In this document: one piece after another, positions 4,963-49,746 of the stretch
Position numbering within the stretch: the stretch's first letter is position 1
Layout: every line of letters starts with the position of its first letter
IMG/VR virus record: IMGVR_UViG_3300031772_000008
Strand: one strand, 5' to 3'
Length of the DNA: 64,000 nt
Source of the DNA: an uncultured virus (IMG/VR IMGVR_UViG_3300031772_000008)
Lineage: Duplodnaviria; Heunggongvirae; Uroviricota; Caudoviricetes
Translations under genes and position numbers: made by a program
The notes under the pieces: model-generated
Databases searched by the model: none
What the model saw: the letters and a program-made list of their open reading frames with translations, nothing else
What the model was told of the DNA's origin: nothing

Positions 4963-5070
4963 TTCTAGGTACAGATAGTGTTTTTATTTACAGCTATAAC
5001 AGCCTCGGCTGATAGCAAGTGCGCCCGAACACTGTCTCTACCTAGAAGTAAAAACATGTTGGGCGCACTT
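4963..5070 (+). promoter_or_regulatory. A-B-C-A'-B'-C' structured leader, copy 1
   Basis: A 4963-82/A' 5028-47; C 5017-31/C' 5057-70; short B TTTAC/GTAAA; TTTTTATTT after A. Confidence 0.6.
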
Positions 5071-5079
5071 ATATTATCA

Positions 5080-5430
5080 ATTCCTTGCTCATAGGCGGAG
5101 CGGATAGGCGAGGATACATACGAACTGAGAGGAAACTCTCTAGGCAGAAACTGCTCCAACTGTTACTGTCGTAGACAACGACTGGTTTAACCTCAAGACA
5201 TTTTATATGCGCCTCGGACAAAGCAGGGAACAGCGAGGTTCGTCCCTAATAGGGATTAGCGAAAAGATGGTTGAACCGACTCCCACTCTGAAAGGAGTGA
5301 GAAACTCAAGTTCTTTCTTGCTTGGTTTATTTTTTTTTTGAACTTGTTTTTCGAAGGAGTCGCCAGGGCTGCCCTGGGAGAACTGTTTAAGTTCACCAGA
5401 GAAAGGTTAACGAATACGGTTAACAAACAA
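5080..5430 (+). ncRNA. Candidate large structured ncRNA upstream of replication genes
   Basis: Multiple hairpins, including GAGAG-GAAA-CTCTC (5127-40), CACTCT-GAAA-GGAGTG (5284-99), GACTCC/GGAGTC, CAAGTTC/GAACTTG and CCAGGG/CCCTGG; no plausible ORF. Confidence 0.5.
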
Positions 5431-5495
5431 TATAGTATACTTAATGCTACTAGATAGCAAGGGCAGTTCTATTCCCTAATACGGAAGGAGAATGT

Positions 5496-6053
5496 ATGAC
5501 ACAAACTATGACACGAGGAATCCGATTGGCGATTACTGAAACGCTTGCCAAGTATGGAATTGATAATGTAGTCCTGGATATGGAACTCACAAAAGTTATA
5601 ACTGATATTATCCAAACGAAACAACCCAAACGAACTTTAGAACAATTGAATAAGGAAACAGAGGATGCGTTTTTTGCATCTTTAGCGAGTAAATCATCTG
5701 GATACGAACAATTTCCAGAGGATATAAGACCTTATGCAGAAAAGTTCTGTACGTTATATAAGATAAAACCACCTATTAGACCTCACAAACAAAGAGAACG
5801 TAGTGAGTTTTCATTCTGGATAACATCTTTGCGTGAATTAATGGATGCCTGTGGTGAGTATGGTAGTGATCTATTAATTGAAATGCGCAAGGAATACGAG
5901 GGAGAGATGCAGGGAGGTCTTGCACCTTTTCGTGTGACAAGTCCTGCTAGTTTAGTGAAGTCTGCGCGTGGTAAAGCTGGTATGAAACGTCAGGGAATAA
6001 GTGGAACTATAAAGCAAGGTAAGCCTAAGTATCATTCTCTTCTGGATGTATGA
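5496..6053 (+). CDS. Hypothetical protein (possible replication organiser/helicase loader)
   Basis: GAAGGAG RBS; translationally coupled to dnaB. Function inferred from position only. Confidence 0.65.
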   Translation: MTQTMTRGIRLAITETLAKYGIDNVVLDMELTKVITDIIQTKQPKRTLEQLNKETEDAFFASLASKSSGYEQFPEDIRPYAEKFCTLYKIKPPIRPHKQRERSEFSFWITSLRELMDACGEYGSDLLIEMRKEYEGEMQGGLAPFRVTSPASLVKSARGKAGMKRQGISGTIKQGKPKYHSLLDV

Positions 6054-7051
6054 TGACTGATCCATTAGATATTATCTTTTCACCTGCACAAGTAGCAAGA
6101 GCCGGTACAGCATATATAGAAGCGCGTGCCTCGAATAAAACCGAAGGGATACCGTTCTATCTTCCTGCGATGGACGAGAAACTACTTCCTTTATTACCAG
6201 GTGAGTTACTAACAATCATTGGAAGACCTGGTGCAGGAAAGAGCGCGGTTTCGATGTACTGGGCGAGATCAAGGGCAAAGTGGTTGCAAGACAGAAATAT
6301 AGACGACCGTGTTGTGGTATTTTTAACTCTGGAGCAATCAGTGGAAGAACTCTACGCTTTCCACGTTGCCTCAGAAACAGGTATACCAGTAGATATTATG
6401 GCTAGAGGGCATCTTGATAAAGACCAGATAGAATTAGTAAGAAACTATGGGGTAAGGCGTTCTACGTTAAATTTATGGCTTATGGGACACTCAATTGAAA
6501 GACGCAAGAAAAGACCTCGTATTAATCTTACCAATATATCCGAATCTTTAACGCGTGTAGAAAATTGGGAAGAGCAGGGTAAAAGAGACCTTAAAATAGA
6601 CATGATATTTGTGGATTATTTGCAGAGAATTCCGTTTGAAGGAAGTCCAGAAAGTAAGGTTATTGGTATAGATGAGAACCTTAATAAGTTAAAAGATATG
6701 GCGTTGATGTTTGCGTGTCCAGTTGTTTGTGGAGTTCAAGCGAGAAGAGAAGTGGATGATAGAGACCCTGCTATTCCAGAACTAGCAGATGGGCAATGGT
6801 CTTCGAGCGTAGAACAAACCAGCGATAAGATTCTTTCAGTAGTGCGCCCGATAAAGTATAAGAAAGAGGGTGAAACATTTGGTAAAATGATAGTGCAGGG
6901 CAGAAATCAAATGTTACTATGTATATTAAAACAAAGACTGGGGGACAGCCCGTGGTTGATCTGGACAAGCTTTGACCCTCAGTACAATAGAATGATAGAT
7001 GCTGAGGTAAGAGATTATAATCTAACCGAGGAGGCTTGGAGTGATAAATGA
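6050..7051 (+). CDS. dnaB: Replicative DnaB-like helicase (RecA/SF4 domain)
   Basis: Walker A GRPGAGKS, FLTLEQS, Walker B IFVDYLQ, Q-ARR, SSSVEQTSD, KQRLG arginine finger. Confidence 0.92.
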   Translation: MMTDPLDIIFSPAQVARAGTAYIEARASNKTEGIPFYLPAMDEKLLPLLPGELLTIIGRPGAGKSAVSMYWARSRAKWLQDRNIDDRVVVFLTLEQSVEELYAFHVASETGIPVDIMARGHLDKDQIELVRNYGVRRSTLNLWLMGHSIERRKKRPRINLTNISESLTRVENWEEQGKRDLKIDMIFVDYLQRIPFEGSPESKVIGIDENLNKLKDMALMFACPVVCGVQARREVDDRDPAIPELADGQWSSSVEQTSDKILSVVRPIKYKKEGETFGKMIVQGRNQMLLCILKQRLGDSPWLIWTSFDPQYNRMIDAEVRDYNLTEEAWSDK

Positions 7052-7455
7052 ACGCTGAAGAAGTAAAGCAGGAAATCTTGTCTTGGATGAACCATGTACC
7101 ACCATTGAATGGATGTGCTATTCCAAGTGCTGGAGAGAGAGGCACAATAACAGGTTTGATGAACTATGCGTTAAAACTAGATGCGGATATGAGTATTGCA
7201 AATGACCGCAGAAGAACTGTGCTCGCATGGATTTTCAGGGATTTACTCAATAAACCAATGGCAGGTGCTATAAGTGCAAAAGAATTAAGTGACGAGATGT
7301 GGTGGGCCATGACAAAATGGGCTGACGTGCATCGAGATCAAGACACTGGTAAGTGGATGGGTAAGTTTGGATTCGAGGACGATGTAGTAACGTGTTTAAG
7401 GGCGATGGAATCCTGGGAGCATTTTATGAATAGTCAACTAGGGTTCGATGTATGA
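7048..7455 (+). CDS. Hypothetical protein
   Basis: Overlapping operon ORF. Confidence 0.65.
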   Translation: MNAEEVKQEILSWMNHVPPLNGCAIPSAGERGTITGLMNYALKLDADMSIANDRRRTVLAWIFRDLLNKPMAGAISAKELSDEMWWAMTKWADVHRDQDTGKWMGKFGFEDDVVTCLRAMESWEHFMNSQLGFDV

Positions 7456-7709
7456 AGAAAAAGAAAGATTTCAGTGTAGTGTGTCATGGATATAATGTTA
7501 AGTGTTCTCCTGTGGGGAGGCAGGAATACTCGAATTGTTATATTGAATCTGGAAGAGTTACCGGACATCCTACGGATACGATATACTTAAGAGTATGCAA
7601 CGATGAAATGCCTGAACCTTCGATACTTCTATTGCGTCCAGATGAAGCAAAGGCTATAATATGGGTGTTAAGTGGTGTGTTATGGTGTCAGGGAATGGAG
7701 AAGATTTAA
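7452..7709 (+). CDS. Hypothetical protein
   Basis: Overlapping operon ORF. Confidence 0.6.
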   Translation: MKKKKDFSVVCHGYNVKCSPVGRQEYSNCYIESGRVTGHPTDTIYLRVCNDEMPEPSILLLRPDEAKAIIWVLSGVLWCQGMEKI

Positions 7710-8482
7710 TGGATAAAATGCTTAATCTTGACGATATTATTTCAACTACGGACACGGATGAAGTAGTAAAATCTGTCCTTGAATCAGGGGAGTTTGACCC
7801 AACCAGGGAAGCCGGCAGTATTTTACCTTACTTGCGCAAGGTCTCGATAAACGATTTAGTCCCGTCTGAGTATCAAGACCAGTTAATGGCATTAGATTCG
7901 ACTCTCTCTTCGTGTTTTTGGCAGATTGGAGATATAACGGACACTTTAATTAATTCAGTAAACAGAGAAAGAAGTGCTGAACTGGGTAAGTTAGTATCGA
8001 ATACAGATATATTCTATGCGGTGGGTTATTTTTGCCATAGGGCAGCCAGGACTGTACGCAGTTATTATGAAAACTCAAGATTTTTCTCCCCAATAACCCG
8101 TGCTAAATACAACATCCCATACAGTGTATATGTTGTAGCGCGGTGGGTAAAAGACTGGGAATTGATGTTAAAACTAGCTGAGGACAATCCACAACTAACA
8201 TCTGAGGCAGTGCGGAATTTATATTATAAAACGATTGGTGAAGAACCGAATGTACGTCCAGAAAAATCTGAAACCGGAAGTGCTGAAACCGGAAGTGCTG
8301 ATGAAGAGCTTGAGGAAAGTGGTAAATATAAGGCAGTGCTATTAGCTAAGTTAGATCATGTTGTAGATGACTTAAGAAGTGTTCTTGACAGGATCAATCT
8401 TCCCACAAGTGTAAGAGTTAGGATTGGGGAAGTGTTATTAGAGATAAATGAAATAACATTGACGATTCGACGCGAGGTGTGA
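7709..8482 (+). CDS. Hypothetical protein (possible DNA-binding)
   Basis: GGAG RBS, TAATG overlap; FWQIGD motif and helical content. Confidence 0.7.
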   Translation: MDKMLNLDDIISTTDTDEVVKSVLESGEFDPTREAGSILPYLRKVSINDLVPSEYQDQLMALDSTLSSCFWQIGDITDTLINSVNRERSAELGKLVSNTDIFYAVGYFCHRAARTVRSYYENSRFFSPITRAKYNIPYSVYVVARWVKDWELMLKLAEDNPQLTSEAVRNLYYKTIGEEPNVRPEKSETGSAETGSADEELEESGKYKAVLLAKLDHVVDDLRSVLDRINLPTSVRVRIGEVLLEINEITLTIRREV

Positions 8483-8560
8483 TATAATAAATACGAGAAT
8501 GATTCTAGTCTCCTTACATTCTCAACACGGCACATAGAACCTCTGCTATGTGCCGTGTCT
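8459..8560 (+). ncRNA. Promoter + ~65-nt sRNA with anti-SD loop + hairpin/terminator
   Basis: TTGACG(8459)-N18-TATAAT(8483); hairpin GAGAATG/CATTCTC with loop ATTCTAGTCTCCTTA; 13-bp inverted repeat 8525-37/8546-58. Confidence 0.55.
8525..8558. terminator. Inverted repeat between convergent operons
   Basis: ACACGGCACATAG-N8-CTATGTGCCGTGT. Confidence 0.65.
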
Positions 8561-8893
8561 AATTAACTTCTGATTCCCGTCTGGAAGACCTATAACTTCG
8601 AAGTGCTGTCCTCTAAAGTCTTTAAGTATTGTCCCTAGTGTAAAACTCTGGTATTTCTTCCTGCACATGCAGACTATTTCGTATCTGTTTATAACTGCGC
8701 CTTTGTGAAATCCAAAAGGGTCTGGGTCATTCACAATAAGAAGTGCGTCCGGGTCCATGCTTAATACTCTACGTTTAAGATAGCGTGCATGGTCTCTTAT
8801 TCTTCTGTTTTCTTCCTTGCATTCCTCACATATAACAGAATGAAATGCTTTTGTTTCTACATCCGATCCGCATTCCCTACAGCGTGTAATCAT
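8546..8893 (-). CDS. Zn-finger hypothetical protein
   Basis: CRECG...CEEC. Confidence 0.6.
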   Translation of the reverse strand: MITRCRECGSDVETKAFHSVICEECKEENRRIRDHARYLKRRVLSMDPDALLIVNDPDPFGFHKGAVINRYEIVCMCRKKYQSFTLGTILKDFRGQHFEVIGLPDGNQKLIRHGT

Positions 8894-9132
8894 TTAGTTA
8901 ACTCCAGGATAGAATAGGCATCTACTACAAGTTTGGGTGCGACTTCAGGCTCTATGTTTGTTATGTAAGTTGCTATCCTTCTTGATTTATCAATGAGTTC
9001 CTCAATTCTTTCAAAAGGCTCTTTGTGTCTTCCATAGGGAGAACCATAGCGTCTTTGTGCTGTCCAGTGTGTATGGCAGTGTCCTTTTGCGTAATACGGT
9101 CTGTTACAGAACCAAACAGTGCATTTTTTCAT
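8890..9132 (-). CDS. Small Cys/His Zn-binding protein
   Basis: C-x4-C..AKGHCHTHW motif of the type often found at the N-terminus of phage HNH proteins. Confidence 0.6.
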   Translation of the reverse strand: MKKCTVWFCNRPYYAKGHCHTHWTAQRRYGSPYGRHKEPFERIEELIDKSRRIATYITNIEPEVAPKLVVDAYSILELTK

Positions 9133-9413
9133 TTTAGTCCTTTCATCATAATTTCCATAGCTTTAATTAAGTCCTCATTAGATTTAATTGCCCGTGCTAA
9201 TTCTGGTATTTTTTTGACAGGTGCTTTAACTATTTTTTCGTTTTCATCCCGTGAAGACGTGATATTAATCTTATAACTCTGGCCGTGTCTATATTTAGCG
9301 TGTACGATACATAGTTTGCGTGCCTCTTCTACATCATGCGCAGCGATATTAAGACTATAAGTATTACCTGTCTTATTACCAAGATAGTATTTTACAATAT
9401 ACCAGTTAATCAT
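9129..9413 (-). CDS. Hypothetical protein
   Basis: Coupled to the downstream ORF. Confidence 0.6.
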   Translation of the reverse strand: MINWYIVKYYLGNKTGNTYSLNIAAHDVEEARKLCIVHAKYRHGQSYKINITSSRDENEKIVKAPVKKIPELARAIKSNEDLIKAMEIMMKGLK

Positions 9414-9549
9414 TTATCACTCACTCTATCATCCAATGATTTTAGGTGATATTCTAGTTCTTTTATGCGATTATAAAATATACGAAATTCAATGAAACAA
9501 ATAACCGCAAGTACATTAATGAGTGCATACAATATATTTATTTGCGTGT

Positions 9550-9846
9550 TCATTTTGACTCCTTATAGTCTTCATCGTAGATCAAAGACGCTACAGCTTT
9601 ACATAGTGTACAATCGTAATTGGGTGTGCAGGTGCATTCCTCATTTGCCAAGTCCTCAAGTATAGAGGCTGTTTCCTGCATACGTGCAATGTCATCCCAG
9701 TCTCTATGCTCATCTACCATTTGAGATGCTATTTTCCACGCTGAAAGTGCTAAGGCTAAAATATGATTCTGAGGGTGAATAGTAGGGGTGGTATCTGGCC
9801 ACCCCTTTTCTGGTTCGTTTGAGGTCATGTCAATTCCGAGTGTCAT
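9550..9846 (-). CDS. Hypothetical protein
   Basis: AGGAGG RBS. Confidence 0.6.
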   Translation of the reverse strand: MTLGIDMTSNEPEKGWPDTTPTIHPQNHILALALSAWKIASQMVDEHRDWDDIARMQETASILEDLANEECTCTPNYDCTLCKAVASLIYDEDYKESK

Positions 9847-10144
9847 TTTCCTCCTAAAGCTGCGTTAATAGAACCTAAAGCGGTTAATACTACGATACCT
9901 ATAATAAAAATAGGTAGAACACATAGTAATAAAGACCCGCATATTCCTACTAATGCTACGATGATACTTCCAAGTATCTCCATTTCAGTCTCCTATTTTG
10001 TATATAATTCTAGTGATTTTAGAATAGCCCAGGACATAATACCGCATAAAAAGACCCATGCTAAAATCCCTATGATGAATTCGACAGTGCTGGACCAATT
10101 TAAGCGGTGCTTTCGTGCGTGTGAGTGACTTCGTGGTTTATATA

Positions 10145-10399
10145 TCATTGTGTCGCCTTTTCGATTGCTTTTCGTAGTGCTGGTGCTACGATTGTATTTT
10201 CAGGATCGATTACATTATATATTTCACCCCGTATTAATGCTAGTGCTAATTCACAAGCAATTAATAGGTCTGGTGCAGCGGATACAAGTTGTCCGTCTTC
10301 TGGATTAAATGTAACGGCAATATTTTCTCCCGTTACTTCATCATAGACAAGACCCTGAAGACTGTCTTTTTTTGTTGCGTTGTACCATTGAGTAGTCAT
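10145..10399 (-). CDS. Phage protein, LVSAAPDLL family
   Basis: A/SAAPD motif, paralogous to 10636..10908. Confidence 0.7.
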   Translation of the reverse strand: MTTQWYNATKKDSLQGLVYDEVTGENIAVTFNPEDGQLVSAAPDLLIACELALALIRGEIYNVIDPENTIVAPALRKAIEKATQ

Positions 10400-10403
10400 G
10401 TCA

Positions 10404-10634: not shown

Positions 10635-10635
10635 G

Positions 10636-10908: not shown

Positions 10909-10909
10909 G

Positions 10910-11119: not shown

Positions 11120-11152
11120 ATTATCCTCTTTTCTTGTGCTATTCTGCACACT

Positions 11153-11179
11153 TGAGGGCGTGATTCGGCTCGCGCCCTC
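11153..11179. terminator. GC-rich hairpin between genes
   Basis: GAGGGCGTGA-TTCGGC-TCGCGCCCTC. Confidence 0.45.
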
Positions 11180-11201
11180 CATGTGTATAGATTAGCTTAT
11201 A

Positions 11202-12336: not shown

Positions 12337-12351
12337 TTTAAGACTCCTATT

Positions 12352-14929: not shown

Positions 14930-15077
14930 TTGACAGGTGGAGGAAATGTGGTAGACTTAGGTGGTCTAGTGAAGTGAGGCGTTTTTTATTTGCCGGTAAA
15001 ACAGTCCTTCTTATGTAAACGTCTGCTTCCTAGACAGAATCGGCAAAGCATGAGAGGGACTGTTTTATAGAGGATGA
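14930..15077 (+). promoter_or_regulatory. Promoter (TTGACA-N16-TAGACT) + A-B-C-A'-B'-C' leader, copy 2
   Basis: A 14964-84/A' 15017-35; B 14989-95/B' 15041-47; C 14997-15015/C' 15049-67; GAGGA RBS follows. Confidence 0.7.
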
Positions 15078-15560
15078 ATGAACTATTACGAATACTTGCA
15101 ATCTGAGTTATGGGGAAAGCGCAGATACGCTGCATTAGAGAGGGCTGATTTTAAGTGTGAGTTATGCGGGGAAATAGATAGTTTAGAGGTACACCATAGG
15201 ACATACGATAGGCTGGGTGACGAAGACCCTGGTGATCTTATTGTTATATGCAAGAGTCATCATTGGGAAGAACATGTACCGAAAGATGTTGTTGTGCATG
15301 TTCCTAGTAAAGCGAAAGAATGTGCTTATGTTATTGGGACTAACAGAAAGATAAGCAAGCTGATGGATTTATATACTGCTATGGGAACGATTGGAGAGCG
15401 CGAGGAAATGCGCGTTGAGATAGATGAACTAGAGAAGTTGCTTAATAAGCACTATAAGAGGGGTAATTGTTCTGTGTGCCCACCGTTGAAGAAAAAACGC
15501 CTATCCAAGAAGGAGAGGAAGGTTATGCGGATGAAATTTAATAAAATGGGAAGGCGATAA
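15078..15560 (+). CDS. HNH endonuclease
   Basis: YYEYLQSELW..R...CELCG...LEVHH.TY...LIVICKSHH. Confidence 0.85.
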   Translation: MNYYEYLQSELWGKRRYAALERADFKCELCGEIDSLEVHHRTYDRLGDEDPGDLIVICKSHHWEEHVPKDVVVHVPSKAKECAYVIGTNRKISKLMDLYTAMGTIGEREEMRVEIDELEKLLNKHYKRGNCSVCPPLKKKRLSKKERKVMRMKFNKMGRR

Positions 15561-15562
15561 TT

Positions 15563-16507
15563 ATGATAGAACTAATAAACAGTAATGCACTTAGGATACC
15601 TTTGGAAGATGAGAGTATTCAGATGTGTGTTACGAGTCCTCCCTACTGGAATTTGCGTGATTATGGTTTATCGGATCAACTGGGATTAGAAAAAACCCCT
15701 GAGGAATATGTCGATAATCTTGTATGTGTTTTTCGTGAGGTAAAGCGTGTATTACGCAAAGATGGTGTATTGTTTTTGAATTTAGGGGATAGTTATGCTG
15801 GTAGTGGTAGAGGAAATAATCCAAATGGAAAGCAAGGCACAAATAAGGGAACATTATTCGACCCTGATAATAGTGGATATGTGCCCAATGGTTTGAAACC
15901 CAAAGACCTCATTGGCATTCCCTGGCGTGTAGCGTTTGCGTTACAGGCTGACGGGTGGTGGTTGAGGTCGGACATTATATGGCACAAGCCTAACCCGATG
16001 CCTGAGAGTGTGACAGATAGACCAACGAAGTCGCATGAGTATATGTTCCTATTGACGAAAAGTGCGAGGTATTACTATGACGCGGATGCGGTGAAAGAAC
16101 CGCTGGCAGATAGTACACTAGCAGATAAGAGAAATGGTAAGGGGAGATTGACAACGGGTGATAATACGAAATACGATTTACCGCCCTGTTCGTGGTATCG
16201 CAATCGGAAGTTTACTAATCCTGCGTTAGGTCGTAACCTCCGTTCTGTCTGGACAATCCCAACCCAGAGTTATTCGGGGGCGCATTTTGCCACATATCCT
16301 GAAAAGTTAGTCGAGCCGTGTATCAAGGCAGGAAGTAAGGCAGGCGACATTATTCTCGACCCATTTGTTGGAAGTGGGACAACTTTACTCGTTGCAAGAA
16401 ATCTAGGTCGTTCTGCAATAGGACTTGATCTAAGTTATACTTATCTGCACGACCAAGCCTCTAAAAGATTGGAACTCGATAAACTAAAGAAGTGGACTAA
16501 TGTATAA
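15563..16507 (+). CDS. DNA methyltransferase (N4-C/N6-A, beta class)
   Basis: VTSPPY catalytic motif, HFATYP, and the DPFVGSGTT SAM-binding motif. Confidence 0.92.
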   Translation: MIELINSNALRIPLEDESIQMCVTSPPYWNLRDYGLSDQLGLEKTPEEYVDNLVCVFREVKRVLRKDGVLFLNLGDSYAGSGRGNNPNGKQGTNKGTLFDPDNSGYVPNGLKPKDLIGIPWRVAFALQADGWWLRSDIIWHKPNPMPESVTDRPTKSHEYMFLLTKSARYYYDADAVKEPLADSTLADKRNGKGRLTTGDNTKYDLPPCSWYRNRKFTNPALGRNLRSVWTIPTQSYSGAHFATYPEKLVEPCIKAGSKAGDIILDPFVGSGTTLLVARNLGRSAIGLDLSYTYLHDQASKRLELDKLKKWTNV

Positions 16508-16543: not shown

Positions 16544-17065
16544 CTATAAAGACAATTCGTTTCTCTGGATTTCTGCCTCTACTATTCTGTGGCATGGAGA
16601 GCAATAAGTGATGAGATTGGATAAATCGTTTGCTTCTATATATCTTTCAATCCCGAATAAACGAAATGGGACAATGTGGTGAACACTGAATCCAGACTCA
16701 TAACACCTTTGACAGGTTCTCCTATCTCTGGATATAGCTTTTCTGCGTTGAGCGTGCCAGTTCGGGCCATGTTGTTCGCTTGCGCTTCCATTAATGTATT
16801 GCGGATGATTTTCCCCCTTGCGATGCTCATCCCTGCATTTACGGGAGCAATATTTACCAATCCCCTTTCTTTGACCAATACGACTTCTAGGAACAAAGAA
16901 TGTTTTTTCACAAGCAATACAAATAAATTCAACTTTCTTTCCTTGTCTATTTTTTATAGCTTCGTATTGACATTTTGGAGAGCAATATTTTCCTCTCCCA
17001 TATTTTATTCTAGATTCCCATCGCTCAAAGGAGACTCCGCATTGAGAGCATATAATAGTTATCAT
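16544..17065 (-). CDS. HNH endonuclease with Zn-finger repeats, inverted between two MTase genes
   Basis: CxxC..YCS repeats; CQRC..VHHIVPF..ANDLSNLITYCSPCH; own promoter. Confidence 0.85.
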   Translation of the reverse strand: MITIICSQCGVSFERWESRIKYGRGKYCSPKCQYEAIKNRQGKKVEFICIACEKTFFVPRSRIGQRKGIGKYCSRKCRDEHRKGENHPQYINGSASEQHGPNWHAQRRKAISRDRRTCQRCYESGFSVHHIVPFRLFGIERYIEANDLSNLITYCSPCHRIVEAEIQRNELSL

Positions 17066-17072
17066 GCTGTAA

Positions 17073-17101
17073 ATTATAACATCAAACATGGGATAGTGCA
17101 A
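17073..17101 (-). promoter_or_regulatory. Promoter TTGCAC-N17-TATAAT, 7 nt upstream of ATG (likely leaderless mRNA)
   Basis: Extended -10 TG-T-TATAAT; no SD sequence between the -10 and ATG 17065. Confidence 0.6.
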
Positions 17102-17103
17102 CA

Positions 17104-18543
17104 ATGACGTATAATATTATTAATGCAGACATAAGAGAATGGGCAAAAAAATATGATGGCCCAAAATTCCATGCAATCCTGAGCGATCCACCGTATAATT
17201 TAGAATCCATAACTAAACGCTTCGGGAAAAAGGATTCCGCTCCCGCTAAATTCGGAACAGATGGAGTATACGGGAGACATTCGGGAGGTTTTATGGGGAT
17301 GGTTTGGGACTCATCTGTTGCTTTTGATCCAGAACTGTGGCATGATATTGGACAACACTTACTTCCAGGTGCGTACCTTTTAGCCTTTGGAGGAACTAGG
17401 ACACAACATAGGTTAATCTGTGCGATAGAAGACGCTGGATTTATGATATTTGATTTAATCGCCTGGCTTCATGGGCAAGGATTTCCGAAAAATCATAATA
17501 TATCGAAGCAAATCGACCGCAGTAACGGGGCGAAAAGAGAGGTAATTAGTATATCTAATAGAGGTAGCGGCGCTCAACCGAATAAACTAAATAATCACGC
17601 AAGAGGAGATACTGGTATCGGGTACGCTGATGGAAGTGGAAAGTCTTTCGATATAACTTGCCCTGCTACGGATATGGCAAAAATATGGGATGGTTATGGC
17701 ACTGCTCTAAAACCCGCGTTCGAGATTATTGTCGTGGCTCGCAAACCAGTAGAAGGTACTATTGCAAATAACTGTGTAACATACGGCTCTGGGGCACTCA
17801 ACATAGATGGGTGTAGGGTGGAAGGCGAAGTGCCTAGTGTGCCAATGCCACTTGGAGGTACTGGAAATATTTATGGATTCAAAAACGGAACAGGTCGTAA
17901 TGGAGAGATGAGTACACCAAGTTCTTTGGGTCGCTGGCCTGCTAATCTCATCCACGATGGTAGTGAGGAAGTGCTGGAGGGGTTTCCGCATAGTACAAGC
18001 GGGGCGATGAAGAAACCATATAAATATACAAACAATGGATTCTCGTTGGGTGCACCTGCAGGAAGCACAAAGACAATATGCGAGGCAAGCGAGGGAAGTG
18101 CCGCCCGTTTCTTTTACTGTGCTAAAGCATCAAAGCGAGAGCGTGACCTTGGTTGTGAAGAGATGGAGGAATCAGAACAAGATCATAATAGATTTGATAA
18201 ATGTGCTAAATGTGGAGGTTATTTATTGCAGAACCCAGACAGACCATCAGCTTGTAAATGCGAAGAACCAGAAAGAATACACGCAAAATCCAGAAATTCT
18301 CATCCCACGGTTAAACCCCTCGCCCTTACCGAATACCTTGCTCGACTTATATTACCTCCTGTTGAATATTCCCCACGAAGACTCTTAGTTCCGTTTGCAG
18401 GCTCAGGTAGTGAAATGATCGGCGCTCATCAAGCAGGTTGGGATGAAATCGTCGGAGTAGAACTATCCGAGGAATATACCAAAATTGCAGAAGCAAGGCT
18501 AAAGCACTGGACTTCTATTCCAAAACAAATGGAGTTCAAGTGA
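17104..18543 (+). CDS. DNA methyltransferase (N6-A/N4-C, beta class, with inserts)
   Basis: SDPPY; GRWPAN; FFYCAKAS; HPTVKP; VPFAGSGS. Confidence 0.9.
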   Translation: MTYNIINADIREWAKKYDGPKFHAILSDPPYNLESITKRFGKKDSAPAKFGTDGVYGRHSGGFMGMVWDSSVAFDPELWHDIGQHLLPGAYLLAFGGTRTQHRLICAIEDAGFMIFDLIAWLHGQGFPKNHNISKQIDRSNGAKREVISISNRGSGAQPNKLNNHARGDTGIGYADGSGKSFDITCPATDMAKIWDGYGTALKPAFEIIVVARKPVEGTIANNCVTYGSGALNIDGCRVEGEVPSVPMPLGGTGNIYGFKNGTGRNGEMSTPSSLGRWPANLIHDGSEEVLEGFPHSTSGAMKKPYKYTNNGFSLGAPAGSTKTICEASEGSAARFFYCAKASKRERDLGCEEMEESEQDHNRFDKCAKCGGYLLQNPDRPSACKCEEPERIHAKSRNSHPTVKPLALTEYLARLILPPVEYSPRRLLVPFAGSGSEMIGAHQAGWDEIVGVELSEEYTKIAEARLKHWTSIPKQMEFK

Positions 18544-22824: not shown

Positions 22825-22972
22825 TACCCCTATACAAATGCGTGAATGGTGATATGATAGTAATGCTTAGGGATGAAGGAAGATAATGTACATACCGCCG
22901 TGTTTCTCCCCTTGTCCCTAAGCAAGACACATTATCTGGAGGAATGCGGCGGTATGTCATTAAGGAGATAGG

Positions 22973-23788
22973 ATGCCTAAATACAGACAGTTACACCTAA
23001 AGTTATTGGATAGTGAAGATTTCAATGATATGCCCGATGATTTCACAAGGTTGTGTTGGGTATTGTTGCCATTAATAGTGGATAGTGAAGGTAGAGGAAA
23101 ATGTCTGACCAACTGGATAAGGTCAAAGATGTTTCCACTTAGAGATAATATAACCGCAGATCAGATTAATGGTGCTTTGAAATGGTTTGTATTACGTGGA
23201 TTGGTGGTGGATTATATAGGGGAAGATGGTGGATATTATTTTTACATCGTAAACTTCAAGAAATATCAGACTGGTTCGGATAAAGAGGGCAAGAGCTATA
23301 TTCCTACGCCCCCCGTAACGTTCCAGAGTATGTCTGTAGTTACTACGGAGTTACTCCGTAGTAACAGCGAAGTAACTCAGAGTAACTCAGAGTCCCTTGT
23401 ATTGTATTGTATTGAATCTGAATTGAATTGTATTGAATCTGAGGAAAAGAAAATATTTACATTCAAGGATGTTGAAAAGGCATTACTCCAGGTATTGAAT
23501 ATCTATCCGCTACCATCGACCTATAACCAGCATTTAGATCATGTGCTGGATCTATTGCAGCATTACGGGTGGGATGAAACGATTGGCAGGCTCACGAAGG
23601 CTAAGGATAACTGGGTTAGCCAGAAGAATAAGACCAACGGGGCGAATTACAAGATCACCAATCCAGCCTGGATAGACTTTGCAATCACGGGGGAGATGGT
23701 AGGAACGCAACCGAAAACGATCAAGCAACAGATTGATGATTATGATCAAAAAAGAATACAGGATTCAATTGAGAGGAATCAAGGATGA
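22973..23788 (+). CDS. Phage replication initiator-like protein
   Basis: N-terminal ..DSEDF...L...DSEGRG...NFKKYQ domain; low-complexity linker carrying DNA repeats. Confidence 0.7.
   Translation: MPKYRQLHLKLLDSEDFNDMPDDFTRLCWVLLPLIVDSEGRGKCLTNWIRSKMFPLRDNITADQINGALKWFVLRGLVVDYIGEDGGYYFYIVNFKKYQTGSDKEGKSYIPTPPVTFQSMSVVTTELLRSNSEVTQSNSESLVLYCIESELNCIESEEKKIFTFKDVEKALLQVLNIYPLPSTYNQHLDHVLDLLQHYGWDETIGRLTKAKDNWVSQKNKTNGANYKITNPAWIDFAITGEMVGTQPKTIKQQIDDYDQKRIQDSIERNQG
23339..23442. repeat. Origin-like inverted and direct repeats inside the initiator gene
   Basis: 12-bp perfect IR 23339-50/23354-65; GTAACTCAGA x2; TTGTATTGAATCTGA x2 (23407, 23428). Confidence 0.7.
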
Positions 23789-45591: not shown

Positions 45592-45598
45592 AGGCTAC

Positions 45599-45844
45599 CT
45601 ACTTTTTGGAACTAGATGCATCCTGACCATGCAACTCTATGAGCGAATGGAAATTATGCCAGGCTACTAACTTGGCAAGAAATGCTTTAGGATACGACTC
45701 CAGTTTGGATAATTCTTCCAATGTCGCTCCCGCCGCAATAGCGGCATCCCATACTGAATAATGAACTGAGTAACTTATGTGAGGGTCTACTGCATTTCTA
45801 ACTCTCACATCTTCAATCGGTTCACCGTTTCGTCGGGCGTCGAA
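45599..45844 (-). CDS. Tail assembly chaperone, frameshifted C-terminal part (gpT-like)
   Basis: Open in the +1 frame from CCC-TTT-CGA of the upstream chaperone to 45599; no RBS of its own. Confidence 0.65.
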   Translation of the reverse strand, partial: FDARRNGEPIEDVRVRNAVDPHISYSVHYSVWDAAIAAGATLEELSKLESYPKAFLAKLVAWHNFHSLIELHGQDASSSKK

Positions 45845-46346
45845 AGGGACGACCAGCCCGACCTATATCCTCCGGTGTTACCGAACTCATGTTCTGGATG
45901 TAATTTATTAACGCGATATTAGCTATGACATACCTCTTAAAAACAAACTCCAGTTCTAATTGGTCATCTAGGTCATAGCTAGCCAAATCTATTTGCCCGC
46001 GTTTTTCCATAAACTTCAGTTTGGGTAGCCATTTCTCCGTGGGCGGAACACCTTCGGGAAGTTCTATTCCGAACATCACCGTGGCGTCTATCATGGCTTC
46101 ACCGCGCTTTCGGTCTACTTCTTCTTTAGCACGAATATACGCAGGGTCATTAGGGTTCTGTTCGTCACGATCATATTCTGGATTATGCCAAACGGGTATG
46201 ATTGGCTCAGGGATACGATTAGTAACGTCAGATATGATTGCTACTGGGATTGCTTTCGGGATAAACAAATATCCGTCAATTTCCCAAATATCATCCTGCG
46301 ATTCGTCTAATTCGCGGGCAGTTTCGATTGCTGCTTTTTCAGTCAT
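45822..46346 (-). CDS. Tail assembly chaperone (gpG-like)
   Basis: Lies between the major tail gene and the TMP; AAGGAG RBS. Confidence 0.75.
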   Translation of the reverse strand: MTEKAAIETARELDESQDDIWEIDGYLFIPKAIPVAIISDVTNRIPEPIIPVWHNPEYDRDEQNPNDPAYIRAKEEVDRKRGEAMIDATVMFGIELPEGVPPTEKWLPKLKFMEKRGQIDLASYDLDDQLELEFVFKRYVIANIALINYIQNMSSVTPEDIGRAGRPFRRPTKR

Positions 46347-46421
46347 TTTTGTATGTACTCCTTTAAGAGTTTTTATCTAACAGCGCAAAGCGTCTGTTGT
46401 TATAAGGTTAAGTGGGGTCGA

Positions 46422-47921
46422 TTACGCTGACCCCACGACGATAAATCCATCAGCCGCGTCATCCGCGAGTCCTGCACCAACGATGAAGTTGGCGTCTGAC
46501 GTGCAGTATGCTAAAGCGTTGATCTTGTCGTTTAGTGGCATTGTGCCTGTTTTCTCAGGAATGAGTTTCCAGGAATTTCCACCGTCGATAGAACGTAGGA
46601 TTCTACCTTTTGATGCAGCAGTCGTGTGAGATAAAAATCCAACTGTTTTAGTTGGGAACACGACCGATTCGACTGAACCTGTCCCTGAACCAGAAAATGC
46701 CTTGATTGACCAAGTAACTCCCTGATTGAGAGTCCAGTAAAGGTTTCCGTTCGAAGCACCTATGAACCATTCTGTGGTTGATTTGACCCATATGGTATTG
46801 ATTGTGACTCCGACACCTACTGGGGAAGTCGGCGAAGCAGTCCATGAAGAGCCATCGTTGGTGAAGATTAAAGCACCGTTCTGACCACCTGATACTGCGA
46901 ACTCAGCCGAAAGTCCATGAACGCAGATTAGGTTCTGAACTGTGGCTACACCAGCGTTGAGTACTGCTACTCCAGTCGTTGGGTCGCTTGTTCCGTACAC
47001 ATAACCGTTGTCTCCAACGATAAATGCATACTGTCCTGAAGACCAGGCATCGTTGGGTTCTGCGGTAGCAACGAAACCAGTTGCGATCTGTGTCCAGGTT
47101 GGGTCTGTGATTCCGTCCATCTCGCTCTTGAGTGCGTAGCTGATGTTGTTCGCACCATTACTAGTAACGAAAACATAATCTCCCAAACACTCTACTGCGG
47201 TTGCAGGAGAAGTTAACCCCTCAATGTCGTGGACTATCCAAGTTGCACCACCGTCTAAAGTATAAACAAAGTCAGGTATGGTAGCTGGTGATCCAGAGGT
47301 TCCAGTAGTTACAGCGTAGACTTTATCGCATCCACTTGACTCTATTTCGCATTCCCCACAAGACACATTGTCGCATAGTACTGCGTCAACTACTTCGTTT
47401 ATTATAAGAACGGGTGTTCGGTTTGTTACACTTAGAGGAACAACCTCGTAAGCGTCTGTGGCTGATATGTCTGATGTTTCATTGATTACTGCATTGTCAC
47501 CAGAAGCTAAAGCGCCCAAATCTTCAGTCGAGTAGTTGGTAAGAAAAGCGCTCTCTAAGATAAGAGCCTTATCATACTCGTTGAAAGCTGATGGGTCAGT
47601 ACAACTTCCAGTATGTAGTTGAACATCAAACGCACAACCCTGCCGTGCAAGTTTCATCAAGTCGGAGAGCATGTCCTGCGGGTAACGTCCTTCCAAAGAA
47701 GTCGTTGGTCGCTCAGTCGCACCCTTGATCTGTGCTTTTTCTACGAAGCCGCCGTATTTATAAGGGTCTGGACATTCTATACGTTCAATGTCCCCGTACC
47801 CTCGGCTTACAGCCATCATTCGTAAGCAAGATTTGTAGGATGGTGTGTGGTCAGGACGCGCCCCGCCCTCGATAAGAAATACACGGGTATTGGCGGTTTT
47901 CGCAATCGTGAAATCGCTCAT
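46422..47921 (-). CDS. Probable major tail protein with C-terminal BNR/Ycf48-like beta-propeller
   Basis: Position upstream of the chaperones; TLDGGATW, TNDGSSW, TLNQGVTW and SIDGGNSW repeats. Confidence 0.7.
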   Translation of the reverse strand: MSDFTIAKTANTRVFLIEGGARPDHTPSYKSCLRMMAVSRGYGDIERIECPDPYKYGGFVEKAQIKGATERPTTSLEGRYPQDMLSDLMKLARQGCAFDVQLHTGSCTDPSAFNEYDKALILESAFLTNYSTEDLGALASGDNAVINETSDISATDAYEVVPLSVTNRTPVLIINEVVDAVLCDNVSCGECEIESSGCDKVYAVTTGTSGSPATIPDFVYTLDGGATWIVHDIEGLTSPATAVECLGDYVFVTSNGANNISYALKSEMDGITDPTWTQIATGFVATAEPNDAWSSGQYAFIVGDNGYVYGTSDPTTGVAVLNAGVATVQNLICVHGLSAEFAVSGGQNGALIFTNDGSSWTASPTSPVGVGVTINTIWVKSTTEWFIGASNGNLYWTLNQGVTWSIKAFSGSGTGSVESVVFPTKTVGFLSHTTAASKGRILRSIDGGNSWKLIPEKTGTMPLNDKINALAYCTSDANFIVGAGLADDAADGFIVVGSA

Positions 47922-47932
47922 AGTATAACCTC

Positions 47933-48205
47933 CTATTTGTCACGATATAGTTTAAGCAATTCTCGCTTAAACACGTTGATACAAGCCTGCATTCCACCTG
48001 GGTCGTTGTTAGCAGCCCGCCAGTCAAACAAACCCCGGTCGTATTGCACAGCCTCTATCCCATTAAATACGGCATCCATATCAATCCCCCTTATATCAGG
48101 TGGTTCATTAGGAACGCCGTAACGAGCCATTTCAGGCCCATCTGTATCTTTGATTAACGAACGTCTTTTACGTCCGGTATCATCTGTCCATATTACTGCT
48201 TTCAA
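47933..48205 (-). CDS. Hypothetical virion-associated protein
   Basis: GGAGG RBS before TTG 48205. Confidence 0.6.
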   Translation of the reverse strand: MKAVIWTDDTGRKRRSLIKDTDGPEMARYGVPNEPPDIRGIDMDAVFNGIEAVQYDRGLFDWRAANNDPGGMQACINVFKRELLKLYRDK

Positions 48206-48213
48206 TAATCCTC

Positions 48214-49548
48214 CTAAATCACCGCAACGCTCATTTTCCGTCCGACATGATGCTTGACTCTTTTCCAAGCCATCATCTCGCCTCGGTGAGTACCAAAAGG
48301 ATTGGTTGTCAATTCCATTCCTTGAAAATAACTCCCTGCGGAAGTTGAATTTGACAGGTCAACACGTAGATAGTCGAACAGGTTCTTGAGACGGTTACAA
48401 GAGCAAGGAGGTCGCTCTAATCGAGCGATAGCTAACCATATAATGCACCACGCCCACATGTCGGAGAGGGGGTCACATGAGATACCTCGCAAGTATTCGT
48501 TGCTTTGGTCTCCCGTTAGATAGTATAACTCAACTTTATCGGGCGCACGGCATACGTCAAAGGATGAAGCCGACCACGTTACGTCGTACGTGGCAGGGGT
48601 AGGTACGACTATCCCCGCTTCGGGGTCGCGCACCTGTATACATCCGTCTTGCTCTATGTCTGAACAAGCAGAACATCCAACACCTCCGCAATATCCGCAG
48701 GTGGAATTTCCTTCCCATTGAAAAACTGCACTAGCTAGGGATGTATCGTTGTATTCTCGATATACATCTACAGCAGCAACTAAAGAGGCAGTTGTGGACA
48801 TATCTACTGCTTGAAATCCATCATCGGTTGGAAATGCATATAGAAGTCCAGGTTCTACAAACAACCAACTTTCAAACTCTAATGTTAACACTCCACCTGT
48901 TAAGTCAACAACTCTTGGGGTTCGTATCTCCCAATCCTGTTGACCGTTCGTTCCTGTAAAATATATTTTGTATTCACACGCATTGGTTGTTTTTACGGGT
49001 ATTGTAATTGTAGCGGTTTCAAACAATCCATCAGAGTCATTATCTGTATAAACTAAAGAACCAGCTAAAACAGTTGCAGAGGTGATAAACTCAATCCCTC
49101 TACGTCCTCCACTTATTATTTTCCCGTATCTTGTGTTTAATCCTTTGGGAAGTCCTCTTACATCACGGACTTGATACATACCTTCTCTGTAAAAATCTCT
49201 TGGATACATCTTCTTTTCTTTTGCGATCCACATTGGAGCAGCAAAATAACCAACTTCTTTCGCTAAAGTTTCCTCTGCGTCTTTTATAGAATAAGCCAAA
49301 GACTCGTGCGAAACCTGGTCTGATTTTTGCCAATCATAACGAGGCCATACATCTCCGCACGAAGAACCAGTAGGAAATACTTGAGGGTTTAAGCTAGAAG
49401 CAGTGACTCCAGCGAAGTGAAGAGGAGCAATACCAACCATGCGAGCAAATCTAGGCAGGGATAAAAGTGTATAAGGTATCGGATATGCGGTAGGTGCAGA
49501 CCCAGGTACTCCGCCACCGATAGGTGTCCAAAATCCAGAACCTCCCAT
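48214..49548 (-). CDS. Putative head-tail connector/adaptor protein
   Basis: I..AEETLA..VGY.; LYYLTG; NPFGT.RG; position before the tail genes (inference). Confidence 0.55.
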   Translation of the reverse strand: MGGSGFWTPIGGGVPGSAPTAYPIPYTLLSLPRFARMVGIAPLHFAGVTASSLNPQVFPTGSSCGDVWPRYDWQKSDQVSHESLAYSIKDAEETLAKEVGYFAAPMWIAKEKKMYPRDFYREGMYQVRDVRGLPKGLNTRYGKIISGGRRGIEFITSATVLAGSLVYTDNDSDGLFETATITIPVKTTNACEYKIYFTGTNGQQDWEIRTPRVVDLTGGVLTLEFESWLFVEPGLLYAFPTDDGFQAVDMSTTASLVAAVDVYREYNDTSLASAVFQWEGNSTCGYCGGVGCSACSDIEQDGCIQVRDPEAGIVVPTPATYDVTWSASSFDVCRAPDKVELYYLTGDQSNEYLRGISCDPLSDMWAWCIIWLAIARLERPPCSCNRLKNLFDYLRVDLSNSTSAGSYFQGMELTTNPFGTHRGEMMAWKRVKHHVGRKMSVAVI

Positions 49549-49611
49549 AGTTATACTCCTTCAATAATCAATTATACACCATATAACATGCTATTGTTAC
49601 GGAACAATTTG

Positions 49612-49746
49612 TGATATAATCACACAGTCTGGAGTGAGTAGCAGTTTTTTATTTGTCAATAGAGAACCACTATTCTGCGGTAAACTGCCTCTCTCCAGAC
49701 AAGATTGGCAAAACGTAGAATGGTGGTTCTTTTTTTGGAGGATATT
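49612..49746 (+). promoter_or_regulatory. Extended -10 promoter + A-B-C-A'-B'-C' leader, copy 3
   Basis: TGATATAAT 49612-20; A 49627-47/A' 49682-700; B 49652-60/B' 49704-12; C 49661-79/C' 49714-32; T-run, then GGAGG. Confidence 0.75.

What the first reader, a model, noticed from the sequence alone, without database searches (positions are those of the whole stretch)
4963..49746. Three dispersed copies of a promoter-proximal A-B-C-A'-B'-C' interleaved-helix RNA leader, two in front of HNH endonucleases
Seen: at 4963-5070, 14964-15067 and 49627-49732 a 105-110 nt element starts 6-8 nt after an extended -10. Each has helix A beginning (G/T)TCT(A/G)G, then a conserved TTTTTATTT, then B and C, then A', B' and C' in the same order. 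The sequences differ but pairing is kept, and the C-helix mismatches in copies 2 and 3 are G-U wobbles on the + strand, which points to selection at the RNA level. Copies 2 and 3 end a few nt before the RBS of two different HNH types; in copy 3, C' runs into a T tract like a terminator. Inference: a switch or attenuator (the helices cross, so they are mutually exclusive or pseudoknotted) that restrains toxic nucleases, or an RNA partner or mobility signal of HNH cassettes. I do not recognise it as a named family.
Basis: partly seen in the sequence, partly recalled or inferred. Interest (0 to 1): 0.8.

Follow-up and report, generated by a model that had tools for sequence, protein, structure and literature searches.

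The report
Interleaved three-helix phage leader RNA
An uncultured phage starts several of its genes with the same odd RNA leader, three helices laced through one another right after a promoter, and related phages keep the design with different sequences, so it is a real, uncatalogued RNA control element rather than a device special to HNH nucleases.

Summary
The three elements are real: folding z-scores are -4 to -5, and 34 of 352 helix pairs are G-U on the sense strand. The window holds a fourth element of unrelated sequence at 22864-22957. Four more lie in other records: two on one IMG/VR phage contig, one on a second, and one in a prophage of an Anaerolineaceae genome. All eight start 4-8 nt after a -10 box. 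All keep the order A-B-C-A'-B'-C' with very short linkers, and seven end 3-12 nt before a ribosome site (copy 1 has no gene for 425 nt). Helix sequences differ almost completely between members. No Rfam family matches.

The downstream genes are two HNH types, a T5orf172 protein, an integrase and three replication-organiser genes. The link to HNH is therefore incidental.

My best reading (about 0.45) is a portable promoter-plus-leader module. A closes first, C-C' pseudoknots onto it, and the 9-bp helix B cannot coexist with a fully zipped C. In four members C' runs into a U-run, so the leader probably acts as a built-in attenuator. In all members it likely shields the 5' end and leaves the ribosome site free. 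Function is inferred; no RNA data were found.

The parts
4944..4954 (+). Extended -10 promoter of copy 1 (TGTGATATAAT)
   Evidence: The motif TGTGRTAKAMT occurs 5 times, all on the + strand, against 0.54 expected.
4963..5072 (+). Leader copy 1. A 4963-4983 x 5027-5047; B 4978-4989 x 5046-5057; inserted hairpin 4991-5016; C 5017-5028 x 5059-5070. No clear U-run, and no gene for 425 nt.
14930..14957 (+). Promoter of copy 2 (TTGACA, 16 nt, TGTGGTAGACT)
   Evidence: 10 of 12 matches, TG present. The hexamers are kept in relative L184 while the surrounding sequence diverges.
14964..15068 (+). Leader copy 2. A 14964-14984 x 15017-15035; B 14989-14997 x 15039-15047; C 14996-15016 x 15048-15068; tail TTTTAT.
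   Evidence: There are 0 differences in the 96%-identical relative L184.
15078..15560 (+). HNH endonuclease gene 1 (160 aa), followed by an N6/N4 DNA methylase gene at 15563-16507
   Evidence: PHROG HNH families, best E 4e-9
22831..22858 (+). Promoter of copy 4 (TATACA, 16 nt, TGATATGAT)
22864..22957 (+). Leader copy 4, not in the finding. A 22864-22876 x 22912-22924; B 22881-22889 x 22929-22937; C 22890-22909 x 22938-22957. No U-run. The Shine-Dalgarno (SD) sequence AAGGAG lies 5 nt after C'.
22973..23788 (+). Replication-organiser (DnaD-like) gene behind copy 4
   Evidence: phrog_1408, E 9e-11. In one search, homologues carry PF07261 or PF09681.
49610..49620 (+). Extended -10 promoter of copy 3 (TGTGATATAAT)
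49627..49736 (+). Leader copy 3. A 49627-49647 x 49682-49700; B 49652-49660 x 49704-49712; C 49661-49679 x 49714-49732; T7 at 49730-49736.
   Evidence: L183 is the same phage at 99.5% identity.
49747..50319 (+). HNH endonuclease gene 2 (190 aa, HNH_3). It lies alone on the + strand among - strand structural genes.
   Evidence: (PF13392, E 1e-14)

Best explanation
These are members of an uncatalogued family of cis-acting, promoter-proximal leader RNAs. The helix order ABCA'B'C' is the topology called 'pseudotrefoil' in PMC3390330.

Shown:
- Each element has its own sigma-70-type promoter, and helix A begins at about the first transcribed base.
- Nearly every base belongs to one of three helices: A (10-20 bp), B (about 9 bp) and C (12-21 bp).
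- The linkers are very short.
- In 7 of 8 members the element ends 3-12 nt before a free ribosome-binding site.

Inferred mechanism:
- A closes as soon as A' is made.
- B' then pairs with B in A's loop and holds the start of C' next to the 3' end of C.
- C-C' zips up as a pseudoknot stacked on A.
- B and the far end of C are tied by only 0-3 nt, so a full C and a full B cannot coexist. B therefore pulls against the base of C without sharing bases with it.
- Where C' runs into a U-run (copy 3, weakly copy 2, L196, L222), C-C' would be an intrinsic terminator. The leader would then be a built-in attenuator that lets only part of the transcripts from a strong promoter reach the gene.
- In all members, the paired 5' end and compact fold probably protect the mRNA and keep the ribosome site open.

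The module appears to serve DNA-acting genes likely needed only in small amounts (HNH, T5orf172, integrase, replication organiser). It is exchanged between phages as a unit.
For: Reality and RNA level:
- There are 8 elements in 4 records: window copies 1-4, L196 and L222 on one IMG/VR contig, L190 on another, and L254 in an Anaerolineaceae MAG.
- Cognate duplex energies average -20.0 kcal/mol, against -4.0 for the 48 non-cognate segment pairs.
- A and C beat 500 of 500 shuffles in all 8 elements. For B, at most 12 of 500 shuffles reach the observed energy in 7 of 8.
- RNAalifold recovers helix A from 5 members, with 9 of 18 pairs changed on both sides.
- 34 of 352 pairs are G-U, and the descriptor scan finds none on the - strand.

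Promoter link:
- Helix A starts 4-8 nt after a -10 box in all 8.

Folding order:
- In prefix folding, A forms first. The nested optimum switches to C once C' is out in copies 2 and 3.

U-runs:
- U7 in copy 3, UUUUAU in copy 2, U6 in L196 and U10 in L222.
- Canonical terminators are not enriched elsewhere in the first 40 kb of the window: 8 against 14.1 expected, and 13 against 13.3.

Module behaviour:
- In L184 the leader has 0 differences, while the 173 nt before it differ at about 43 positions.
- A related contig replaces exactly 4957-5077 with 461 other letters.

Precedent for competition without shared bases:
- Structures placed right upstream of a terminator lower termination (bioRxiv 10.64898/2026.06.17.733018; I read the abstract and section 7).
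Against: - No RNA ends, termination or half-lives were measured.
- Four of 8 members (copies 1 and 4, L190, L254) have no U-run, so attenuation cannot be the common function.
- L190 has no credible helix B (289 of 500 shuffles do as well).
- In copy 1, B overlaps A.
- The geometric argument that B and a full C exclude each other is my own estimate from helix and linker lengths, not a model.
- The segment borders used were chosen knowing the helices, which favours the cognate pairs.
- Only 4 records hold the family, and copies 2 and 3 are close paralogues.
- The covariance model found no further member in 150 other genomes of the class.
Confidence: 0.45

Rival explanations
1. The leader is a static fold only. 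It forms a very stable pseudoknotted cap at the 5' end that protects the mRNA from 5'-end-dependent RNases or a 5'-3' exonuclease, and insulates the ribosome site from upstream sequence. There is no switching and no attenuation.
For: - Helix A starts at the predicted first base in all 8 members.
- The ribosome site lies outside the helices in the 7 members that have a gene close by.
- Half of the members lack a U-run.
- No sequence is conserved between the copy-4 type and the U-tract type, so shape rather than sequence appears to be selected.
Against: - A single hairpin would be enough for 5' protection.
- Helix B is kept in 7 of 8 members, although by my geometry it cannot coexist with a full C.
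- U6-U10 runs sit directly after C' in three members.
Confidence: 0.2
2. The leader is an operator for a trans-acting factor. A phage or host protein, or an antisense RNA, binds the fold or one of its strands and decides between termination and readthrough, or between translation and silence. Models are the P1 c4 system, the P4 CI system, and the leader pseudoknots of plasmid rep genes.
For: - The same design stands before four unrelated transcription units of one phage, which would allow co-regulation.
- Linker motifs (UUUUUUAUUUG, GUAAAC, GGCAAA) are conserved between copies 2 and 3 while the helices differ.
- A promoter-like site on the opposite strand lies inside copy 4 at 22960-22931.
Against: - No linker motif is shared with copy 4 or L190.
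- No candidate binding protein was identified.
- The antisense promoter match is no better than chance (57 found against 52.1 expected).
- Rfam c4, c4-a1b1 and isrK models do not match.
Confidence: 0.15
3. The roughly 105-nt RNA is itself the product. It would be an abundant small RNA made from a strong promoter and ended by C-C' plus the U-run. Downstream genes would be expressed only by leakage. The RNA would act in trans as a structural decoy, for example against a host nuclease or defence protein.
For: - The promoters are strong: 10 to 11 of 12 matches with a TG extension.
- Copy 1 has no gene for 425 nt.
- U7 and U10 runs follow copy 3 and L222.
- A further TGTGATATAAT promoter at 8478 drives only a short two-hairpin RNA.
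Against: - Four of 8 members have no U-run.
- Seven of 8 stand 3-12 nt before a ribosome site and start codon, which is the layout of a leader.
- No shared sequence exists that could recognise a common target.
Confidence: 0.1
4. The repeats act in DNA. They would serve as a recombination or homing site, or as a cruciform, that moves the cassette.
For: Mosaic borders coincide with the element. L184 diverges up to the base before helix A. A related contig swaps exactly 4957-5077.
Against: - 34 G-U pairs would be C-A mismatches on the other strand.
- The descriptor scan finds nothing on the - strand.
- Interleaved repeats cannot form a cruciform.
- The borders are as well explained by recombination at the shared promoter sequence.
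Confidence: 0.03

Closest known systems
[quoted passage not shown]
   Same: - Both are cis RNA structures at the 5' end of selfish nuclease genes.
- Promoter position relative to the helix matters in both.
- Both include terminators that trim expression.
- One known case, seg43(25), has a very stable hairpin just upstream of a free RBS. (PMC2988022; I read passages of sections 9, 11, 12 and 14.)
   Different: - The known cases are single hairpins that mostly bury the RBS.
- They work by a late promoter placed inside the hairpin.
- Here three helices cross, the RNA starts at the outer helix, the RBS stays outside, and most members do not precede nucleases.
Terminator/antiterminator leaders, and in particular the 'tug-of-war' architecture (bioRxiv 10.64898/2026.06.17.733018)
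   Same: - Both have a promoter-proximal terminator-like helix plus U-run.
- In both, a competing structure shares no bases with the terminator and acts through proximity. Spacers are 0-1 nt here.
   Different: - No ligand aptamer, leader peptide or tRNA sensor is evident here.
- The competitor lies inside the terminator's loop, next to its 3' strand, not upstream of the hairpin.
- Half of the members have no U-run.
P1/P7 c4 antisense RNA with its a/b target blocks, and P4 CI or IsrK (Rfam c4, c4-a1b1, isrK)
   Same: Both are phage promoter-proximal RNAs in which blocks and their complements lie in the same order on one transcript, so the pairings cross. This description of the c4 system is recalled, not taken from a call.
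   Different: - There is no Rfam match at E<=10.
- The blocks here are 9-21 nt and contiguous, not short loop sequences on a processed scaffold RNA.
- No icd/ant-type target gene is present.
Leader pseudoknots of plasmid replication genes (IncB, IncI-alpha repA/repZ). Recalled, not checked in a call.
   Same: Both are pseudoknots in the leader of a replication-initiation gene, close to its ribosome site. Three of the 8 members precede replication-organiser genes.
   Different: - The plasmid pseudoknots are short loop-to-target pairings.
- They are controlled by an antisense RNA and a leader peptide.
- Neither control was found here.
ABCABC ('pseudotrefoil') pseudoknot class
   Same: The helix order is the same. 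The class is rare but recorded: 51 sequences, against 1688 with H-type knots, in the data set of PMC3390330 (passages read).
   Different: That paper is a topological census, not a functional family. I could not see which RNAs the 51 are. Whether all three helices here ever coexist is doubtful.

Membership tests
Rfam c4 / c4-a1b1 / isrK / HEARO (any Rfam family) | Match to the family covariance model | tested here: not met
   - Window: 0 matches at gathering score and 0 at E<=10.
- L196, L222, L254 and L190 at E<=1: only a tRNA and a weak sR58 hit, neither on a leader.
T4-type RBS-sequestering hairpin | Shine-Dalgarno sequence and/or start codon paired inside the helix | tested here: not met
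   The SD lies 1-8 nt beyond the end of C' in copies 3 and 4, L190, L196, L222 and L254. In copy 2, core C' ends 5 nt before the SD; the G-U-rich extension of C to 15068 stops one base short of it.
T4-type RBS-sequestering hairpin | Promoter inside the hairpin, so that its transcripts lack the 5' arm | tested here: not met
   The -10 box ends 4-8 nt before the 5' arm of helix A in all 8 members, so both arms are transcribed. Start sites are predicted, not mapped.
Intrinsic-terminator attenuator | Stable stem directly followed by a U-run | tested here: inconclusive
   - Met in copy 3 (U7), L196 (U6) and L222 (U10).
- Weak in copy 2 (UUUUAU).
- Absent in copies 1 and 4, L190 and L254.
- The 'loop' is 31-36 nt long, and the simple terminator scan does not call any of them.
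Intrinsic-terminator attenuator | Antiterminator that shares a strand with the terminator | tested here: not met
   Each segment has one partner only. A, B and C share no bases, except a 2-6 nt overlap in copies 1 and 2.
Intrinsic-terminator attenuator | A sensor (ligand aptamer, leader peptide, tRNA or protein site) | tested here: inconclusive
   No conserved short ORF is present. Copy 2 has GTG AAG TGA, copy 3 has a 45-codon frame, and copy 4 has a frame of about 33 codons. No aptamer family matched. Protein sites cannot be tested with these tools.
'Tug-of-war' antitermination | Stable structure within a few nt of the terminator, no sequence overlap, and an effect that depends on spacer length | not testable with these tools
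   The layout fits in part: B' ends 0-1 nt before C' in 7 of 8 members. The effect on termination needs an assay.
ABCABC (pseudotrefoil) topology | Three helices, each crossing the other two | tested here: met
   The order A B C A' B' C' holds in 7 of 8 members. L190 has only A and C, which is an H-type order. Whether the helices coexist was not tested.

The most novel reading that the evidence does not exclude
This would be a new class of self-contained phage expression modules: a promoter plus a 'pseudotrefoil' leader. Three non-overlapping helices would be coupled mechanically rather than by shared bases. It would be a natural, ligand-free 'tug-of-war' device that sets a fixed readthrough and protects the 5' end. 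The module would be swapped between phages and placed in front of any gene that must be expressed sparingly. Earlier notes of this scan report the same design in other uncultured phages, so it may be widespread.
Probability: 0.3. Interest if true: 0.78.

Novelty: new variant of a known kind. Interest (0 to 1): 0.68.

Why it matters
Structured leaders that govern phage gene expression are known, but this one has an unusual build. Every base sits in one of three mutually crossing helices, the RNA begins at the outer helix, and the design survives complete turnover of the helix sequences.

If the helices compete through geometry alone, this would be a natural example of a control principle described so far only for engineered switches and some ZTP riboswitches.

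It would also help annotation. The element marks transcription starts and independently expressed cassettes (nucleases, integrase, replication genes) in uncultured phages of poorly known hosts such as Anaerolineae.

Because it is compact and carries its own promoter, it could serve as a part for setting low, insulated expression.

Tried and rejected
DNA pattern searches:
- The loose pattern GTCTRG..TTTTTTATTTG in viral contigs gave 120 stretches. Only 4 had the A' hexamer and none was an element.
- The strict pattern with GTAAAC and CYAGACA gave 0 in viral contigs and 2 chance hits in genome contigs. In metagenome contigs it gave 6 stretches, of which 2 are near-identical relatives (L183, L184) and 4 are chance.
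- The A-start/U-tract/A'-end pattern gave 40 viral and 45 genome stretches.
  - About 30 of the viral stretches are one unrelated conserved marine-phage sequence.
  - My filter passed 4 of the 85 matches: L254 clearly, and L257, L267 and L269 marginally. I do not count those three.
  - L222 is a member by eye but failed the filter.
- The copy-4-type pattern gave 16 stretches, all chance hits in GC-rich genomes.

Protein routes to relatives:
- HNH1, the 444-aa neighbour and the DnaB-like protein gave no locus in viral contigs.
- The GenBank phage collection gave no DNA match, no match for the 444-aa protein, and only 3 distant HNH hits.
- The 58 HNH_3 loci (323,261 bases) gave 4 descriptor hits at 3 loci, none in front of the HNH gene. 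That is background level.

Covariance model R1 (helix A only):
- It recovered only its own training sequences and their near-identical copies.
- It missed copies 1 and 4.
- It found nothing in 150 other genomes of the class of G003.

Other checks:
- MAFFT alignments do not keep helices B and C in register. I therefore did not run the count of structure pairs and counted pairs per element in scripts instead.
- There is no HNH remnant behind copy 1.
- The window's own genome is not held.
- Sequencing runs: no RNA holder was listed. A joint that skips the HNH1 ORF (15075>15562) rests on a 28-letter side and is too weak to use.

Ideas considered and dropped:
- A self-cleaving ribozyme, because no conserved core exists between the two subtypes.
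- A U-A-U triple helix of the U-tract in helix A, because the purine strand is G-rich.
- A conserved leader peptide.
- SD sequestration by anti-SD stretches in C or A'. Such stretches exist, but on different strands in different members.

Full report
**The observation.** The three stretches read as described.
- Each follows a promoter. Copies 1 and 3 have TGTGATATAAT. Copy 2 has TTGACA-16-TGTGGTAGACT, with 10 of 12 matches and a TG extension.
- The motif TGTGRTAKAMT occurs 5 times in the window, all on the + strand, against 0.54 expected.
- As single strands the elements fold far better than shuffles. Energies are -39.0, -39.1 and -38.1 kcal/mol, and z-scores are -5.1, -5.2 and -4.0. Of 200 shuffles each, 0, 0 and 1 fold as well.
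- A listing of exact stems gives the three helices of each copy. The coordinates are in the parts list.
- The conserved TTTTTTATTT is not a free linker. Its first Us pair with the AAA of GUAAAC at the top of helix A. Its last three Us open helix B.
- Copy 1 departs from the others. Its B is the U-tract paired with AAGUAAAAACAU, and a hairpin is inserted between B and C.

**A fourth copy.** I scanned for crossing stems, and then for three mutually crossing helices with short B>C and B'>C' linkers.
- The scan returned 5 hits at 4 loci, all on the + strand. They are the three known copies and a new one at 22864-22957.
- Five locally shuffled windows gave 2, 0, 1, 0 and 0 hits.
- Copy 4 shares no sequence with the others and has no U-tract, but it has the same plan:
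  - a -10 box, TGATATGAT;
  - A of 13-15 bp, B of 9 bp and C of 20 bp;
  - linkers of 4, 0, 2, 4 and 0 nt;
  - then CAUUAAGGAG and the start of a 271-aa gene.
- That gene is a replication organiser. It matches phrog_1408 at E 9e-11, and many of its 131 homologues carry PF07261 or PF09681.

**Relatives.** The phage is far from anything in the GenBank phage set, and its own genome is not held.
- Two metagenome contigs are near-identical: L183 at 99.5% and L184 at 96%.
- In L184 the 112 nt from helix A to the ribosome site show 0 differences. The 173 nt before them differ at about 43 positions, although both promoter hexamers are kept.
- An alignment of homologues of the replication organiser (A2) gave 13 IMG/VR loci. 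Two of the 13 carry the design in front of the gene.
  - L196 has a U-tract type element. Its sequences for A, B and C are all new, it keeps the A-top pairing GGCUUU/AAAGCC, B is 8-9 bp, and U6 follows C'.
  - L190 has a copy-4 type element. Its A also starts TGCUUAG, C is 18 bp, and it has no credible B.
- The contig of L196 holds a second U-tract element, L222. It ends in U10 and precedes a T5orf172 protein (Pfam E 3e-10).
- A pattern built from the A start, the U-tract and the A' end found L254. This is a clear member in an Anaerolineaceae MAG. It precedes a tyrosine integrase (Pfam E 2e-20) that abuts a tRNA gene, so it lies in a prophage.
- In total there are 8 elements in 4 records.

**Statistics on the eight.**
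- Duplex energies of cognate segments are -15 to -30 kcal/mol for A, -2.5 to -12 for B, and -22 to -34 for C. The mean is -20.0, against -4.0 for the 48 non-cognate pairs.
- With the 3' segment shuffled 500 times, no shuffle reaches the observed A or C in any element.
- For B, the numbers of shuffles that reach the observed energy are 3, 1, 3, 0, 10, 4 and 12 in seven elements, and 289 in L190.
- The segment borders were set knowing the helices, which favours these figures.
- RNAalifold on a plain MAFFT alignment of five members finds helix A by itself. Nine of its 18 pairs changed on both sides.
- Of 352 pairs, 34 are G-U. These would be C-A mismatches on the other strand, where the descriptor scan indeed finds nothing.
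- No Rfam family matches.

**Anatomy.**
- Helix A starts 4-8 nt after the -10 box in all eight, at about the predicted first base.
- The strands A>B (1-4 nt), B'>C' (0-1 nt; about 1 nt in copy 1) and C>A' (0-2 nt) meet at the top of A like a three-way junction.
- The far ends are tied as well, by B>C (0-3 nt; 27 nt in copy 1) and A'>B' (3-7 nt).
- My estimate is that a 9-bp B spans about 25 Å and a 16-21-bp C about 45-59 Å. Joined at both ends by so few bases, they cannot both be complete.
- A and C can coexist as a long H-type pseudoknot. The connecting strands are 10-17 nt long and contain B and B', which would then be apart.
- A conserved B therefore points to an intermediate or competing state. 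This step is inference.
- Prefix folding shows the order of events: A forms first, and the nested optimum switches to C once C' is out.

**Function.**
- Downstream genes are two HNH types, T5orf172, integrase, three replication organisers, and (for copy 1) a 425-nt gap followed by a 185-aa ORF and a DnaB-like helicase. The HNH link is therefore incidental.
- None of 58 loci with HNH_3 relatives has the design before the gene.
- U-runs follow C' in copy 3, L196 and L222, and weakly in copy 2. They do not in the other four.
- Canonical terminators are not enriched in the first 40 kb of this window, so these U-runs stand out.
- I read the family as a portable promoter-plus-leader module. It would be an attenuator where a U-run is present, and a 5'-protecting, RBS-exposing fold everywhere.
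- The idea that a helix can oppose a terminator without sharing bases has experimental precedent in the 'tug-of-war' work (bioRxiv 10.64898/2026.06.17.733018; abstract and section 7 read).
- Module exchange is supported by the L184 border and by a related contig that replaces exactly 4957-5077 with 461 other letters.

**Comparison with known systems.**
- T4-type controls of homing-endonuclease genes are the nearest biological parallel (PMC2988022, passages). They are single hairpins that bury the RBS, or terminators inside the gene.
- The ABCABC order is a recorded but rare topology called 'pseudotrefoil'. It occurs in 51 sequences, against 1688 with H-type knots (PMC3390330, passages). A search for that word finds only this paper.
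- Searches for pseudoknot, leader, bacteriophage, HNH and terminator terms listed nothing whose title or abstract describes such an element; I did not open those papers.

**Earlier notes of this scan.** They report the same kind of design in other uncultured phages. None shares sequence with this window. I treat them as leads only.

**Limits.**
- No RNA data exist for this phage.
- The family rests on four records.
- The mechanism is inferred from layout.

Noticed in passing
window 8459-8557 (+): This is the best promoter match in the first 20 kb: TTGACG-18-TATAAT with TG, carrying the same TGTGATATAAT as copies 1 and 3. It drives only a short RNA with two hairpins (GAGAAUG/CAUUCUC and a 13-bp stem at 8524-8557). 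The RNA points at the 3' end of the converging - strand gene 8546-8893. Its first bases (GAAUGAUUCUAG) resemble the start of copy 1. It may be a small antisense RNA or a cut-down relative of the leader.
   Followed up: partly
window 5078-5495: A 425-nt stretch without a credible ORF and without an HNH remnant lies behind copy 1. It contains a T-rich hairpin (about 5305-5352), a CCAGGG/CCCUGG hairpin, and a promoter-like site at 5407-5436 before the 185-aa ORF.
   Followed up: partly
window 4957-5077 and 15076-15561 (related strains): In sediment-metagenome contigs of related strains, one contig replaces exactly the copy-1 leader with 461 other letters. Another contig appears to skip exactly the HNH1 ORF, but only 28 letters support one side, so this is weak. 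Table 5 lists further cassette-like insertions and deletions.
   Followed up: no
window 16544-17104 (-): A third HNH gene (PF01844, E 2e-6) sits on the opposite strand between two DNA-methylase genes. It has no leader of this kind.
   Followed up: no
window 50896-63987 (-): An 1167-aa protein is made largely of SPSVSPS-type repeats. It is followed by a block of glycosyltransferase, sugar epimerase and GHMP-kinase genes inside the phage-like region. This may be a glycosylated fibre or a surface-modifying cluster.
   Followed up: no
L254 / L290 8961-10275 (G003:C2, about 49.8-51.1 kb): An Anaerolineaceae MAG carries a member of the leader family before a tyrosine integrase that abuts a tRNA gene (L254 651-732), which is the end of a prophage. 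This hints that Chloroflexota are hosts of this phage group.
   Followed up: partly
L204-L243 (about 30 IMG/VR loci, match length 68): The A-start/U-tract pattern also hit one highly conserved 68-nt sequence (GTCTGATGGTGTCCATC...CTAGACA) in many small marine-type viral contigs. It is unrelated to the leader and probably lies inside a gene.
   Followed up: no
window 22960-22931 (-): A promoter-like site (ATGACA-18-GATAAT, 10 of 12 matches) on the opposite strand lies inside helix C' of copy 4. It would give an RNA antisense to that leader. The match is no better than chance.
   Followed up: no
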